64,000 nucleotides of DNA from Hormiphora californensis (Eukaryota; Animalia; Ctenophora). The translations under genes and the position numbers were made by a program. The notes under the pieces are model-generated. The model was not told where the DNA came from and ran no database searches. It was given only the letters and a program-made list of their open reading frames with translations. This document shows, piece by piece, positions 2,950-8,098 of this stretch. Numbering within the stretch: the stretch's first letter is position 1; each line of letters starts with the position of its first letter. Where the stretch lies: positions 5,084,001 through 5,148,000 of the forward strand of contig CM035360.1 of the NCBI GenBank assembly GCA_020137815.1, read 5' to 3'.

Positions 2950-5900
2950 ATGGCGAAACCCGGACCTTCCAGCACAGTCGAGTGCCTAACATCCAAGTTA
3001 ACACGACCCCTCAACTCTATAATTAATCTGTGCTTGACAAGGTTGATCCGGGGAAGTGGGGAACCTCTTGGAGGAAATATTCCTGAAAACGTTACCAGTT
3101 TTGATATCAGGTATATAATATAAATCTTGCTAACTTATTAAATAACAAATTCCAGTAGTTGCAGCTGGTTGTAGGGTACAGTTGATACTACAACACTGTT
3201 TGTTTTGTTCCATTTCCCCTGTAGTTCCAATACATTTCAAATGTAGGACTGAGTGAGGGACTGAGTGAGGGACTGAGTGAGGGCTCTAGGGTAGGTACGT
3301 GACCTTGGTAGTAGACAATGACGAGATCAGACCCAAGACCATTATAGAGAGGTTGGAGAGAGGGAGAGCAAAAGAGCTAGATGCTTCTATAATAGGGTGC
3401 TATAAGAGCCTAGAAGCATCACGCTATGTCCTTCTCTCCTAGGAGGGGTGTGTGTAGAGATCTAACTTGAGCGTTCTGGCCCAATTTCCGGACTAACAAC
3501 GTAGTGTGACTCGTGTATACTTAGTACTTTATCGCAGGCTCTCTTCCTTTATATTTGTCTCTGTTCCTAATATCCAAAATCCCTCTCTCTCTCTATCCAT
3601 CTCTCTCTTTAGAATCGTAGTACGAAATTGTAGAAAGGTGTAAAACGTGGCCTGCGAGCTATGAATAATCACGACTCTTTCTTGCACACTCTCATTTGTT
3701 GGAGAACACCTTTCTGAAATCTTATTGCTTTATACGCAATGATCTCTGGTCTCTCCCTCTCTCTTTTCCAGTTCTCTCTCTCTCTCTCTCTCTCTCTCTC
3801 TCTCTCTCTCTCTCTCTCTCTCTCTCTCTCTCTCTCTCTCTCTCTCTCTCTCTCTCTCTCTCTCTCTCTGCCTTCTCCTTTTCTATCTTTATTCACACGT
3901 ATTCACACTGTAAATGAGATCCACTCTAAATTATATTCTCTCCCCCTCCCCGACCTGTGCTAAAACCATCCTAAAGTAGGAATTTCCCCGTGATAAAACC
4001 ACCCTCTCATATCCCCTTCCCCAACTATAATGCTAATACGATACTAAATAATATCCCCTTCCCCAGAGTCCCTGTGCGAGCTGGACAAACATCAGCGGGA
4101 GATCATATCAGGACTCTATTTGATTGTGAGCTACCCTCTGACAAGGAAAATGAAAGCTTCGTAAAAAGTCTGGAAAAGGCCCAACTAAGTGGCTCCGGGA
4201 TACGCTTTGTTGTATTAGGTACGTTATCCCTCTTTCCCCTTTACATCGCACATTTCACACATTGTGCTCCGCAGTTTCGTTACGGTAATCTGCTGAAAAA
4301 CACTGTCAAAACGCATGTCATTACCCCTTGGTAATGACATTACCCCTCCGCACGAGCGCCTCGATGGGGAAGTAAATGGGTGACTTTCGTAACCAAATGT
4401 TCCCCTATTAGGTTCAGAGAACACGGTGGGTAAGTGGCTAAACGGTGGGAGAAGGGGTCACGGTCTGAATTACCGGTGTTTTGCTCAGCAGTTCGTTAGT
4501 GGACCCATGGGACCTGGACAGAGAAACTTCTACGAACAGACCCTTCTTTTGGGCGAGGTAATTGCTGAAATTATTTGTGTAGCCTGCGCTCTTCTTATTT
4601 CATTTCATAAAACATCCCGGGCTCTCAAGGAAATTACTGAGATCAGGGTAGGTAAGTTAGACATGTTTCGACACCAGGGGTGTGGGAGTTTCCTCTTTTA
4701 TTAGAGACCGACAGGTGCTACTGGGAGAACTGGGGGACTCTAGAAAGTTACAGCTGTGATGGGTTACCCCATATATGTGTATCTCTTACTTTCACTAACA
4801 AGAGAGAGAGAGAGAGAGAGAGAGAGAGAGAGAGAGAGAGAGGGAGAGAGAGAGGGAGTGTGTGAAGAGAAAGAGAAGTTGTCAGAGCATGTCAAGACAT
4901 CCCCCATCCCTAATATCCCCCTCTCCCTGGACACCAGGTGATCTATGACGACATCACTTCACAGCTGAATGAACTGGCACAGGCTGAAGGAATAGATCAG
5001 ACTACCATCAAATACGGGGAAAATAAGGTATAACTTAGAGAAACTCAATCTCATGAAATAGAGATCTCTTGTTGGGGGAGGGGGATTTAATATTTTAATG
5101 GGAAAACTTGCCTTGCTCGACCCTCTTTCCGTGCGCTCCGCACAAATGTAAAGGAGGGTTAGAACATAACAATGGAAAACATGTATAATGCAGCTGATAA
5201 GATTGTGTGAGTTTGTCTAATTCCTGATAACTCCCTCTCCCAGGCGTATGATAGGATGGTTGAGGAGGCCAGTGTGAGGTGTCAGCGTCGTCTTGCTAAT
5301 ATCGTGAGATGTATCGCAAGATGTTCCCTTCGACCCATCTGCATCTCGGGAGGAAATGAAGACATTCTCGGATTAGGGTGAGTGATAGAGAAAGAGTGAT
5401 AGAAAGATAGAGAGATAGAAAGATAGAGAGGGGTAGAAAGATAGAGATGAGATATAAGACAGAGACAGAGCTATCGAGAAAAAGATAAATAAGAAGTTGA
5501 CGTACTACAAAATGTACTAAAACCATTTCCATCAGGTACGGGGTACACCTTGGTCGAACTATAGCACGAGGAACAACAACCAATCTGACGTTAGGTGGGT
5601 GTCTAATTCTAATTCCACAATTATTAGTGGTTTTCAGGGTAATTGGTGTCTTCTCATCTCATAATTTCCTAGTTAAATATGGTCCATATTATATGTGAGA
5701 AATGTTTGTCTGTACAAAATCGTGTAGCTTTGTGGATTTGTAGGAGCGGTTAATTGTCCTTTCTTTTCCGAATGAGGATTAATTGTTCTGGGAGTCGTGG
5801 TTTTCTATTTCCGGGTTTAAATCATTTTTTATCTCTCTTCTCTCTTTCCTATCTTCCTTTCCCCCCCCCTCTCTCTCCCGACTCCATCTCTCTCTATTTC

Positions 5901-8098
5901 CCTCTCTTTCTATATCTTTCTCCCCTCTCTCCCCTCATCCTTTCTCTCTCTCTAAAAGCATAATTATTCCAACAGGAAACCTCGACTGCCACGGCGATTA
6001 CAAATCCCTTGAGGAGCGTGGCGCTCACTCTGGGAATGGATTTAGTTTCCTCAACGCCATCGGTTGTTTGAAGGTAAGTTATATAATAGGTCGCTAGTAG
6101 GGTCTAATGGTAGGTTACAGGTCGCTAGTAGGGTCTGACAGTGAAAGCCATGGCAATTAGAGTTGTATGCTTTTATCTTTGTTCTGGACACGTCAATACT
6201 GCTTGGGTTCCGGGTTGTGTAAGTAAAATAGGGGAAAGAGAGTCGAGAGAAAGGCCACTGTGATCGCAAGGGGCCCCTGGATCGTTTTGCATAAACCCTG
6301 GCCCCGCCTGAATCTTTCCTCCTCCTCTCTCTTCTCCTTCCCTCTCTCTCCTTTCCTTCTTCTCTCTCTCCCCTCTCTCTCTCCTCTCTCCCCCTCTTTT
6401 TCCCCCTCTCTCTCTCCCTTCTCTTCCCCCTCTCCCCCCTCCTGGCTTTAAAAGTTATCTTGTACAATACACACACGCCAGGTGAAACGGAAAGAGATGG
6501 AGTGAGAGTTATACTTGGAGGCCAAGCTTGGGTGTCTTGAGGAGAGAGCGAGAGGGAGGGGGAGAGAGAAAGGGAGAGAGTGAGACTGAGAGCGAGGGAG
6601 AGTGTTAAAAGAGAGGGAGAAGAAGGTCGGAGAAAGGGAAAGAAAGACAAAAATTTTACTTTTAGTCTTGCAAAGCGAAAGCAGAACCCGGTGTAGCTAA
6701 CAAAAAGGGTCCGGGGGCCCTTTAATACTCCGGGTTTTTCCCCGTATGGGATACCTGGGGGGGAAGGGGGAAGAGAGAGAGAGAGAGTGTGTGTGTGTGT
6801 GTTTTGTTTGTTTTTTGGGGGGAGAGAGAAAAATAGAGAGAAGAGAGAAAAGGGGTGAGGGGGTTTTGGTTTTAAAAAGGGTCCCTTTTTTCCCTTTTTT
6901 TTTGCCTTCCCCCTTTTTTTTCCTTTTTTTTTCCCCGTGTTGTTTTTTCCCCCTGGTGTTTTTCCGCCCTTGGCGTTTTGTTTCGGGTTTTCGGGTGAAA
7001 GGGTTAAAATCCCCCCCTTTTTCCCCCCCCCCTTTTGTCCCCTGCTTGGCTTAAAATCCCCATGAGAAAAGAACTATGATGGAGAGACTTATCAGCACAA
7101 ACTGTTGGTACAGGTACGTGGTCAAACATTTTTAATTTCCCCTTTTCTATATCCCCCCGGGAAATTTTTTTGAAAGTCACAGCAAAACCTCGGGGTTTCC
7201 CTTGGGGTTTTTATAGTCCCCCTTTCTATCCCCCTTCCCATCAACCCTTTTATCACCGAAAAGTTCAGTCCCTTTTAAAAAACCCCTTTTAGTCACCCCA
7301 CCTGTTTTCCCGTAAAAACCTTTACTAAAAAATTTTCCCCGGTTTTTTGGTATATTTAAATGTGATCGGGGGCAAAAGGAAAGTCCCCAAATCTCCCATC
7401 AGACTGTGGTTTTACATGACTCGTGGCCGGGGTTTAGAACGGACGGGGGGGGAAGGGGATAAAAATCGATTTAGCTGCTACACAATTATTTTAGTTTTTA
7501 AAACTTGACATACTTCATACTTCTGCCTGGTTCGGAGATGGCAGTCTTTTGTGAGACAATTTAAAAAGACAGCGTTTAACAAGCGATTCGTCACCTCCAG
7601 GTTCCGGGCTTGTGTGTGGATATAGATGTGACAGAGGATCTACCAACTGTCAGCTGCCCTGCCACCCTTGGGCTAACCCGTCTACAGGTAACATCAATAA
7701 TTGCAGTTATTGATGTCTGATATCCCCCCCCCCCTTTATCCAGTTTATACAGAGTTCCGGGATTATCGATCATAGTCGATACCCATAATTCACTCAGCAC
7801 TCTTGAACCCCCTAACCCCTCTATCTACTAATCTATATTTAACACCCCAGACCCCTCTATCTAACCTATAACACCACTCTACCTAACACAGGTTCACGAA
7901 CTGGTGCAAGAGTTTACAAGATACAACAAGCCTTTCTTCCTTCTGATTGCTGAGGGAATGCCGGATCCTCTGGTACCCCTGACAGACGGGGTAAACCGTA
8001 CTCTGGGAAATACCAGTCAAATCTTGTGTCCTGTTTCCTCACTAATTGTATTAGTGTTCCCCATACTAAAGGGGAAGTTTTGGGGAAAAGGAAGATAG
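2950..8098 (+). CDS. Multi-exon ureohydrolase (arginase superfamily), formimidoylglutamase/HutG-like
   Basis: Phase-compatible exons 4067-4218, 4412-4557, 4938-5027, 5244-5377, 5536-5594, 5976-6073, then ~7030-7113 (noisy), 7601-7687 and 7892-~8098. Motifs: RFVVLG, LLLGEV, PICISGGNED, NLDCHGDYK, HSGNGFSF, GLCVDID, LLIAEG. Putative 5' exons from the ATG at 2950 are less certain. Confidence 0.8.
3771..3869. repeat. (TC)n microsatellite
   Basis: Perfect dinucleotide run. Confidence 0.95.
5110..5172 (+). repeat. Short dispersed repeat family
   Basis: CCTTGCTCGACC...GTAAAGGAGGGTTAGAA(C/A)ATAACAA; related copies near 15245-15285, 58426-58465 and 62870-63012. Confidence 0.55.

What the first reader, a model, noticed from the sequence alone, without database searches (positions are those of the whole stretch)
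2950..8098. Bacterial-type HutG-like ureohydrolase with many spliceosomal introns: domesticated horizontal transfer candidate
The spliced protein follows the bacterial formimidoylglutamase pattern (VVLG..N.GR.G..LLLGE..PI.I.GG..N.D.H.D..HSGNGFS..G...D.D..EG.P) rather than animal arginase or agmatinase. Animals normally handle formiminoglutamate with FTCD. At least 8 GT-AG introns containing host microsatellites argue against contamination. The family match is from recalled motifs, not from a search.
Basis: partly seen in the sequence, partly recalled or inferred. Interest (0 to 1): 0.7.

Follow-up and report, generated by a model that had tools for sequence, protein, structure and literature searches.

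The report
Bacterial histidine enzyme in comb jellies
Comb jellies carry an intron-rich, spliced gene for an enzyme of a mostly bacterial histidine-breakdown family, likely picked up from microbes long ago and predicted to finish histidine breakdown without the folate-dependent step that mammals use.

Summary
The gene is real and belongs to a ctenophore. It has 11 exons and 10 introns, not 8: two exons and the 3' end lie in homopolymer-garbled sequence. Orthologs exist in Bolinopsis, Mnemiopsis and Pleurobrachia. Two junctions are bridged by RNA-library contigs. The protein groups with a Bacteroidota/Gammaproteobacteria HutG-like subfamily (SH-aLRT 100), whose genes lie near hutI in 9 of 20 loci. 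The fold search ranks formimidoylglutamases first. Among 21 named rows of 120 listed, the only other eukaryotes were four oomycetes and a ciliate; one eukaryotic clade was rejected. The donor is unresolved: 40 of 59 placements stand, including beside the ciliate. Metal ligands are mostly kept, but 19 of 51 near-invariant subfamily positions changed in all nine ctenophore sequences, so the substrate may have shifted. FTCD in ctenophores could not be tested. Verdict: likely an old horizontal acquisition, fully domesticated, not found in my ten paper searches; activity inferred.

The parts
2950..3110 (+). Exon 1, with start codon; ctenophore-specific N-terminal extension
   Evidence: exons 1-2 match EukProt Pleurobrachia model P0010 at 101 of 103 residues
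4067..4218 (+). Exon 2
   Evidence: 81% identical to Bolinopsis ortholog
4412..4557 (+). Exon 3; N-terminal HutG-type Gly/Asn loop, partly changed
4938..5027 (+). Exon 4
   Evidence: RNA-library contig joins it to exon 5, 216 bases skipped, GT..AG
5244..5377 (+). Exon 5; carries Asn (N217 of P0002) where the subfamily has the His ligand of the first metal
5536..5594 (+). Exon 6; the intron after it is missing in five ortholog fragments
5976..6073 (+). Exon 7; DxHxD metal motif (D247, H249, D251 of P0002), Arg-to-Lys change after it, two-residue insertion, HSGNGF motif
7043..7113 (+). Exon 8, damaged by small indels; 5' boundary not readable, donor GT at 7114
7344..7454 (+). Exon 9, heavily damaged; boundaries approximate
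   Evidence: the loose end of the X1 contig before 7599 resembles its last codons (compared by eye)
7601..7687 (+). Exon 10; DxD metal motif (D344, D346 of P0002)
   Evidence: (joined to exon 11, 204 bases skipped, GT..AG; 6 of 6 listed substitutions at third codon positions)
7892..8068 (+). Exon 11; conserved Glu (E387 of P0002); frame change near 8003-8005 and damaged stop near 8066-8068
2918..2949 (+). Branch-point-like CTAAC and AG (2943-2944) five bases before the ATG: possible trans-splice acceptor, untested
   Evidence: read from the sequence; ortholog contig L109 starts with a leader-like 38-base stretch

Best explanation
This is a conserved, spliced ctenophore gene for a HutG-like ureohydrolase, likely acquired from bacteria (directly or through a microbial eukaryote) before the Pleurobrachia and lobate lineages split, and predicted to be a two-manganese enzyme that hydrolyses N-formimino-L-glutamate to glutamate and formamide. 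Shown: gene structure, orthologs, splicing of two junctions, purifying selection, fold, membership of the subfamily, retention of D247, H249, D251, D344, D346, H261 and E387. Inferred: horizontal origin (about 0.7), from the patchy distribution and the non-monophyly of the eukaryotic members; retained formimidoylglutamase activity (about 0.55-0.6), from the hut linkage of bacterial relatives and from Trypanosoma cruzi formiminoglutamase, which has Asn at the same first-metal position. Mechanism by analogy with arginase-family chemistry (recalled): the metal pair activates a bridging hydroxide that attacks the formimino carbon. After transfer the gene gained about ten spliceosomal introns, a 45-residue N-terminal extension and probably a spliced leader. 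It would give ctenophores a folate-independent last step of histidine breakdown, beside or in place of FTCD.
For: Orthologs: Bolinopsis microptera XP_063689794.1 and Mnemiopsis leidyi KAL5248364.1, Pleurobrachia bachei EukProt models; clean window exons match them at 271 of 332, 269 of 315 and 256 of 260 aligned residues. Against ortholog contig L109, differences over 286 codons fall 64/32/176 on codon positions 1/2/3. A profile of 314 non-ctenophore subfamily members scores nine ctenophore proteins at 142-153 bits, three canonical HutG at 67-87, and 15 other ureohydrolases at 14-40. Rooted tree: ctenophores plus subfamily SH-aLRT 100, sister to canonical HutG at 96. AlphaFold model pLDDT 92; the top four Foldseek rows are formimidoylglutamases of Vibrio, Bacillus and T. 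cruzi. hutI lies within the fetched flank in 9 of 20 chosen bacterial loci, hutC in 3, and one relative is a HutI-HutG fusion. T. cruzi enzyme has Asn at the aligned position and is a confirmed formiminoglutamase (PMC12203737, passages). Named rows: 15 bacteria, 4 oomycetes, 1 ciliate, 1 ctenophore, no other animal or holozoan. A single eukaryotic clade is rejected (AU p 5e-8 and 2e-8). GC3 0.48 is like the neighbouring MOCS2A at 0.45.
Against: The donor is not identified: the ctenophore stem is 2.0-3.5 changes per column and 40 of 59 placements are not rejected under the mixture model; ctenophores with the ciliate (p 0.57), with the oomycetes (p 0.38) or with an unnamed eukaryote-looking trio (p 0.29) all stand. 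The curated hutG cut-off is missed by far. 19 of 51 near-invariant positions are changed in all nine ctenophore sequences (six of the nine are near-copies), among them the Arg after DxHxD that 308 of 315 subfamily rows and all three canonical HutG keep. By VIA-align, metformin and guanidine hydrolases tie with formimidoylglutamases (Z 33-34), so the fold does not fix the substrate. 11 of 20 bacterial loci showed no hutI in the flank. The window copy itself is frameshifted in exons 8, 9 and 11.
Confidence: 0.45

Rival explanations
1. Horizontally acquired HutG that changed job on the ctenophore stem: still a metal-dependent amidine hydrolase, but for another formimino, guanidino or amidino substrate, with FTCD doing the histidine step.
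For: 19 of 51 near-invariant subfamily positions are changed in all nine ctenophore sequences while the metal-binding Asp/His residues stay; two conserved Arg residues of the pocket loop become Lys and Ala/Thr, and the loop has a two-residue insertion seen in 0 of 308 scored non-ctenophore rows. A very long stem is followed by strong conservation (78-83% identity among ctenophores).
Against: Arg-to-Lys and His-to-Asn are conservative, and Asn is the natural residue in the active T. cruzi enzyme; several of the 19 changes lie in gappy alignment. A long stem also includes divergence in the unsampled donor lineage.
Confidence: 0.27
2. Vertical inheritance: an old eukaryotic formimidoylglutamase of this subfamily was kept by ctenophores (and some protists) and lost in other animals and their unicellular relatives.
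For: The subfamily occurs in a ciliate and possibly in an unnamed eukaryote-looking trio (P0065, P0177, P0178); a clade of these with ctenophores is not rejected (AU p 0.15 and 0.18). Ten introns show great age. Hernandez and Ryan set aside four candidates for this reason when holozoan hits existed (PMC6005172).
Against: Oomycete members nest among Rheinheimera-type Gammaproteobacteria and the ciliate sits among unnamed rows near Bacteroidota, the pattern of repeated transfers. No non-ctenophore row joined the ctenophores with support in any tree. No holozoan name appeared although EukProt is in the searched collection. Many independent losses would be needed.
Confidence: 0.2
3. The window copy is a decaying pseudogene, or the locus is contamination or a chance reading.
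For: Indels in exons 8, 9 and 11; no contig covered 7030-7589 or 7975-8075; the RNA contigs come from other samples and differ by a few percent.
Against: The damage is confined to two homopolymer-rich blocks that also cover introns and flank; seven exons are intact; the Pleurobrachia model P0005 has exons 8 and 9 in readable form; orthologs in other genera are full length; bacteria have no spliceosomal introns. At most this concerns this one assembly.
Confidence: 0.04

Closest known systems
Bacteroidota/Gammaproteobacteria 'formimidoylglutamase' subfamily with the HSGNGF motif (Flavobacterium, Pseudoalteromonas, Rheinheimera, Shewanella; PF00491)
   Same: Nearest relatives at 24-29% identity; same motif set, 30 of 51 near-invariant positions kept in all nine; one clade at SH-aLRT 100.
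   Different: Ten introns, about 45 extra N-terminal residues, His-to-Asn at the first metal site, pocket Arg residues changed, very long branch. I saw no biochemical test of this subfamily; its label rests on database names and hut linkage.
Canonical HutG formimidoylglutamase (TIGR01227; PDB 1xfk Vibrio cholerae, 3m1r Bacillus subtilis)
   Same: Best NCBIfam hit, best Foldseek hits, sister group in the rooted tree.
   Different: 45 bits against a cut-off of 229; 13-20% identity in structural alignments; different motif after the conserved His.
Trypanosoma cruzi formiminoglutamase (PDB 4mxr, 2a0m, 4myn)
   Same: A eukaryote using the bacterial type-I route to glutamate and formamide (PMC12203737, passages); Asn at the first-metal position; same fold.
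   Different: It carries the canonical-type motif, not HSGNGF, so the shared Asn is probably convergent (5 of 314 subfamily members also have Asn). It was not in my trees.
The nine confirmed horizontally transferred genes of Mnemiopsis leidyi (Hernandez and Ryan 2018, PMC6005172)
   Same: Intron-bearing enzymes of non-animal origin shared among ctenophores (parts 2-3 of the text).
   Different: None of the nine is a ureohydrolase (Table 3); no mention of arginase, formimino or histidine in the text or the one supplement held.
Animal glutamate formiminotransferase (FTCD) route
   Same: Would act on the same substrate, formiminoglutamate.
   Different: FTCD passes the formimino group to tetrahydrofolate (PMC7146355, passages); a HutG releases formamide and uses no folate. 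Unrelated protein (recalled).

Membership tests
Ureohydrolase (arginase) superfamily, PF00491 | Arginase-type alpha/beta fold | tested here: met
   Model of the Bolinopsis ortholog, pLDDT 92; Z 33.5-33.8, rmsd 2.4-2.6 A over 298-307 residues to 3m1r and 1xfk.
Ureohydrolase (arginase) superfamily, PF00491 | Pfam gathering score of 22 bits | tested here: inconclusive
   One ortholog 22.9 bits, the other 21.7.
Ureohydrolase (arginase) superfamily, PF00491 | DxHxD and DxD metal ligands, conserved His and Glu | tested here: met
   D247, H249, D251, D344, D346, H261, E387 kept in 9 of 9 ctenophore sequences; their roles are recalled from arginase.
Ureohydrolase (arginase) superfamily, PF00491 | His ligand of the first metal ion | tested here: not met
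   Asn in 9 of 9; a known exception, as in T. cruzi formiminoglutamase (Mn-bound structure titles).
HSGNGF HutG-like subfamily | Groups with the subfamily to the exclusion of canonical HutG, arginases and agmatinases | tested here: met
   SH-aLRT 100, quick tree of 52 rows; profile scores 142-153 against at most 87 bits. Outgroups were bacterial only.
HSGNGF HutG-like subfamily | Near-invariant residues of the subfamily | tested here: inconclusive
   30 of 51 kept in all nine, 2 changed in some, 19 changed in all.
Canonical HutG equivalog TIGR01227 | Curated score cut-off 229 bits | tested here: not met
   45.3 and 42.1 bits. Bacterial subfamily members also fall far below it (for example 52 bits). 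Not filed as TIGR01227.
Formimidoylglutamase, EC 3.5.3.8 | Arg two residues after the DxHxD motif | tested here: not met
   Lys in 9 of 9 ctenophore sequences; Arg in 308 of 315 subfamily rows and 3 of 3 canonical HutG, but also in 3 of 15 other outgroups. Its role in substrate binding is recalled, not read.
Formimidoylglutamase, EC 3.5.3.8 | Hydrolyses N-formimino-L-glutamate to glutamate and formamide | not testable with these tools
   No assay; bacterial relatives are hut-linked.
Formimidoylglutamase, EC 3.5.3.8 | Upstream histidine pathway (histidase, urocanase, imidazolonepropionase) in the same genome | not testable with these tools
   No genome held.
Domesticated horizontal gene transfer into an animal | Integrated in the host genome: spliceosomal introns, host neighbours, expression, orthologs in related species | tested here: met
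   Expression is shown by contigs of other samples only, for 2 of 10 junctions.
Domesticated horizontal gene transfer into an animal | No ortholog in other animals or unicellular holozoans | tested here: inconclusive
   None among named hits, but most hits are unnamed or unlisted.
Domesticated horizontal gene transfer into an animal | Supported nesting inside a donor clade | tested here: inconclusive
   40 of 59 placements not rejected; best place beside a Roseivirgaceae and a Phycisphaerales row, both long branches.

The most novel reading that the evidence does not exclude
Ctenophores lack FTCD and end histidine breakdown with a bacterial-derived formimidoylglutamase, so a whole animal phylum has uncoupled histidine from the folate one-carbon pool and makes formamide; the gene may also sit as the second member of a trans-spliced operon behind MOCS2A, like the transferred flp gene of Hydra.
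Probability: 0.2. Interest if true: 0.75.

Novelty: new member of a known kind. Interest (0 to 1): 0.5.

Why it matters
If the reading holds, this is a formimidoylglutamase-type gene in an animal phylum, old enough to have gained about ten introns and too diverged (24-29% to its nearest relatives) for a BLAST-score screen to flag easily; it is not among the nine transfers confirmed for Mnemiopsis. It makes a simple question testable: do ctenophores, placed by many as sister to all other animals, break down histidine by the bacterial route instead of the folate route? Either answer is informative. A transfer shows pathway replacement on the ctenophore stem; vertical descent shows a loss shared by all other animals; a changed substrate gives a new ureohydrolase activity. 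The kind of event (metabolic gene from microbes kept by an animal) is well known, which caps the score.

Tried and rejected
Single exons against Pfam and NCBIfam gave no ureohydrolase hit; phmmer of the full ortholog against PDB gave two chance hits only. The first fold, from a 6-row alignment, was poor (pLDDT 44) and was not used. The treekit AU test did not finish on one CPU and was replaced by direct IQ-TREE tests. Trees with canonical HutG as sole outgroup had a saturated branch and were dropped. Under LG+F+G4, ctenophores with oomycetes were rejected (p 0.017) but not under the mixture model (p 0.38), so I do not rely on that rejection. The all-eukaryote constraint included three unnamed rows whose eukaryotic origin I only judged from their look; the Atlas listed bacterial clusters for one of them. 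P0005 (a repetitive gene model), fragments under 300 residues and cluster near-copies P0155-P0169 were left out of all trees; the small trees used 50, 52, 37 and 34 hand-picked rows out of 323. Run X1 holds only 0.07 of the sampled words and X2 next to none; no habitat is inferred from them. Lack of contig cover over exons 8 and 9 is not evidence. A bicistronic mature mRNA with MOCS2A is not supported by L109, whose 88-base 5' part has no such frame, but L109 is a distant species. No shared indel links ctenophores to the unnamed trio: they have two extra residues in the pocket loop, the trio one, as do two other rows. Rfam over 1-12000 found only a tRNA. Paper searches showed no report of this gene in their listings; the Hai et al. 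and Derelle et al. papers were not held, and the gene tables of the metazoan HGT compendium could not be read, so a listing there is not excluded.
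Full report
Observation. I read 1-10500 and translated the + strand. Seven exons run in one frame from ATG 2950 to 6073 across six GT-AG introns; exons at 7601-7687 and from 7892 are separated by a seventh. Exon 8 (about 7043-7113) aligns to an ortholog coding sequence with score 80 against a best of 47 in 100 shuffles. Exon 9 (about 7344-7454) was found only by a frameshift-aware alignment to the close model P0005, score 50 against a best of 32 in 15 shuffles. The last exon changes frame near 8003-8005 and ends near 8068. The damage sits in two blocks where homopolymer runs make up 42% and 39% of the bases, against 9-10% elsewhere in the gene. 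I take this as assembly error; it is inferred, since no reads covered those exons. The gene has 11 exons and 10 introns, 7 with both boundaries clean.

Host. Exon 3 found three proteins, one named Bolinopsis microptera LOC134822596; its cluster holds Mnemiopsis leidyi KAL5248364.1. Three EukProt models (two shown as Pleurobrachia bachei, the third with the same kind of id) match the clean exons at 101 of 103, 94 of 95 and 61 of 62 residues. The window is therefore from a Pleurobrachia-like ctenophore. It also holds rhodopsin-type GPCR exons and a MOCS2A whose best PDB hit (5mpo, 44 bits against at most 30 for the other four chains) is the eukaryotic one by my recall. An earlier AI note on the same genome also calls it a comb jelly; that is agreement, not support.

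Expression and selection. A marine metatranscriptome contig joins exon 4 to exon 5 (216 bases skipped, GT..AG, 44 letters on the shorter side) and another joins exon 10 to exon 11 (204 skipped, 76 letters): 2 of 10 junctions, one study, depth about 3, not the same individual. All 6 listed substitutions in exon 10 fall on third codon positions (with frame). L109, a 1786-base contig, has an uninterrupted 420-codon ortholog; against it the window differs at 64, 32 and 176 first, second and third positions over 286 codons. Its first 38 bases end in TGAG, one T short of the AATTTGAG leader motif reported for ctenophores, and fit the 35-48 base leader length (PMC8527503, passages; compared by eye), so it is likely a trans-spliced cDNA. 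Eighteen short ORF fragments from other assemblies begin or end within three residues of nine of the ten intron positions; five read straight through the sixth (their genomic nature is inferred from unrelated flanks, and four other apparent read-throughs are alignment overhang or an in-frame intron). Most introns thus predate the split of the sampled ctenophores, and one is lineage-specific.

Family. Orthologs hit hutG TIGR01227 at E 6e-12 to 6e-11, far below its cut-off, and Pfam Arginase at the threshold. A full scan of 1.84 billion representatives with a ctenophore profile gave 248 hits, 150 listed; after ctenophore pieces the best score was 79 bits, then a continuum of one subfamily with the HSGNGF motif. 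Named members are Bacteroidota and Gammaproteobacteria labelled formimidoylglutamase. In 20 loci picked for diversity out of 80, ORFs of 170 residues or more showed hutI in 9, hutC in 3 of these, and ftcD beside one other; one relative is a HutI-HutG fusion. A profile of 314 non-ctenophore members scores ctenophore proteins at 142-153 bits, canonical HutG at 67-87 and 15 other bacterial ureohydrolases at 14-40. In a rooted tree ctenophores and the subfamily form one clade (SH-aLRT 100), sister to canonical HutG (96). The 128-row model has pLDDT 92; Foldseek ranks Vibrio, Bacillus and T. cruzi formimidoylglutamases first, while VIA-align ties them with metformin and guanidine hydrolases. Animal arginase and agmatinase were not in the trees; in PDB searches they ranked below the formimidoylglutamases.

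Active site. In P0002 numbering, D247, H249, D251, D344, D346, H261 and E387 are kept in 9 of 9 ctenophore sequences; their roles as metal ligands and catalytic residues are recalled from arginase. The His ligand of the first metal is Asn, as in T. cruzi formiminoglutamase, an enzyme with confirmed activity (PMC12203737, passages). Against a simple reading, 19 of 51 positions that are at least 90% invariant in the subfamily are changed in all nine, including the Arg after DxHxD (Lys), the Arg before HSG (Ala or Thr) and the two Asn after the metal His (Glu, Asp), with a two-residue insertion in that loop. Six of the nine are near-copies, and several changes lie in gappy columns. The enzyme probably still binds metal and hydrolyses an amidine; whether the substrate is still formiminoglutamate is open.

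Origin. Of 120 listed rows out of 778, 21 named an organism: 15 bacteria, 4 oomycetes, 1 ciliate, 1 ctenophore. Of 24 further non-ctenophore clusters looked up, 2 gave an organism: a Phycisphaerales bacterium and the same ciliate. Oomycetes nest among Rheinheimera-type bacteria and the ciliate sits elsewhere. Forcing ctenophores, oomycetes, ciliate and an unnamed eukaryote-looking trio together is rejected (AU p 5e-8 and 2e-8), but leaving the oomycetes out is not (p 0.15 and 0.18). The ctenophore stem is 2.0-3.5 changes per column, and 40 of 59 placements stand under the mixture model. So the family has entered eukaryotes more than once and no other animal or holozoan member surfaced, which favours transfer (about 0.7); no donor can be named, and inheritance with losses is not excluded.

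What is known. Hernandez and Ryan confirm nine transfers in Mnemiopsis, none a ureohydrolase (PMC6005172: term search, parts 2 and 3 of 7, one supplement); I did not see whether this gene was among their 37 initial candidates. The metazoan compendium's main text has no mention (PMC13342648, term search) and its tables were not readable. Ten paper searches (listings only unless stated) showed no report of a ctenophore HutG; the library lacks most subscription journals. Mammals pass the formimino group to tetrahydrofolate (PMC7146355, passages). Among trypanosomatids the HutG route is kept only in T. cruzi and Paratrypanosoma (PMC10874023, passages). Whether ctenophores have FTCD I could not test.

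Neighbour. A single-exon MOCS2A (2509-2763; TIGR01682 over cut-off) ends 186 bases before the ATG on the same strand, and both genes have an AG within five bases of their start codon. This fits two trans-spliced genes in an operon, as shown for a transferred gene in Hydra (PMC3273482, abstract); a 2021 paper states that operons had not been reported in ctenophores (PMC7986045, passages). It is untested.

Verdict. Observation confirmed with corrections; interpretation partly supported. A new member of a known kind: an old, fully domesticated, probably transferred metabolic gene shared across the sampled ctenophores, with a remodelled pocket. Interest 0.5.

Noticed in passing
window 2509-2763 (+): Single-exon MOCS2A/MoaD-like sulfur carrier (TIGR01682 over cut-off; best PDB hit 5mpo). 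It is followed after 186 bases by the ureohydrolase rather than by MOCS2B, its usual partner on one mRNA in animals (recalled). Both starts have an AG just upstream; no AATAAA in the gap. Possible trans-spliced operon.
   Followed up: partly
L109 1-38: AT-rich 5' end finishing in TGAG, like the ctenophore spliced leader described in PMC8527503; compared by eye only.
   Followed up: partly
proteins P0192, P0245, P0266, P0284, P0257: Saprolegniales oomycetes carry a member nested among Rheinheimera-type Gammaproteobacteria, and the ciliate Pseudocohnilembus carries another: probable separate transfers of the same subfamily.
   Followed up: partly
proteins P0065, P0177, P0178 and P0070: An unnamed, well-supported trio and one protein on a 2.86 Mb contig look eukaryotic (extensions, insertions); their organisms are unknown and matter for the origin question.
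   Followed up: partly
protein P0005: The EukProt model repeats exons 8-10 three times, a partial tandem duplication or misassembly in that assembly.
   Followed up: no
window 6650-7500, 8000-8720, about 43100-44500: Blocks of homopolymer-rich, apparently unpolished sequence, the last around a 100-base N gap at 43650-43749; gene models in such blocks will look frameshifted.
   Followed up: partly
window 9846-9918 (+): tRNA-Arg(TCT) gene.
   Followed up: no
window 56246-57977 (-): Exons of a rhodopsin-family GPCR (PF00001).
   Followed up: no
window 59568-60005 (-): GNAT acetyltransferase exon (PF13508, PF00583 over cut-off).
   Followed up: no
window 46882-47679 (-): 265-residue stop-to-stop frame with a hydrophobic stretch near its C-terminus and no Pfam match.
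   Followed up: no
L039 4268-6712; protein P0141: A Bacteroidota locus has the HutG-like gene directly before a glutamate formimidoyltransferase gene, both routes side by side; P0141 is a HutI-HutG fusion.
   Followed up: no
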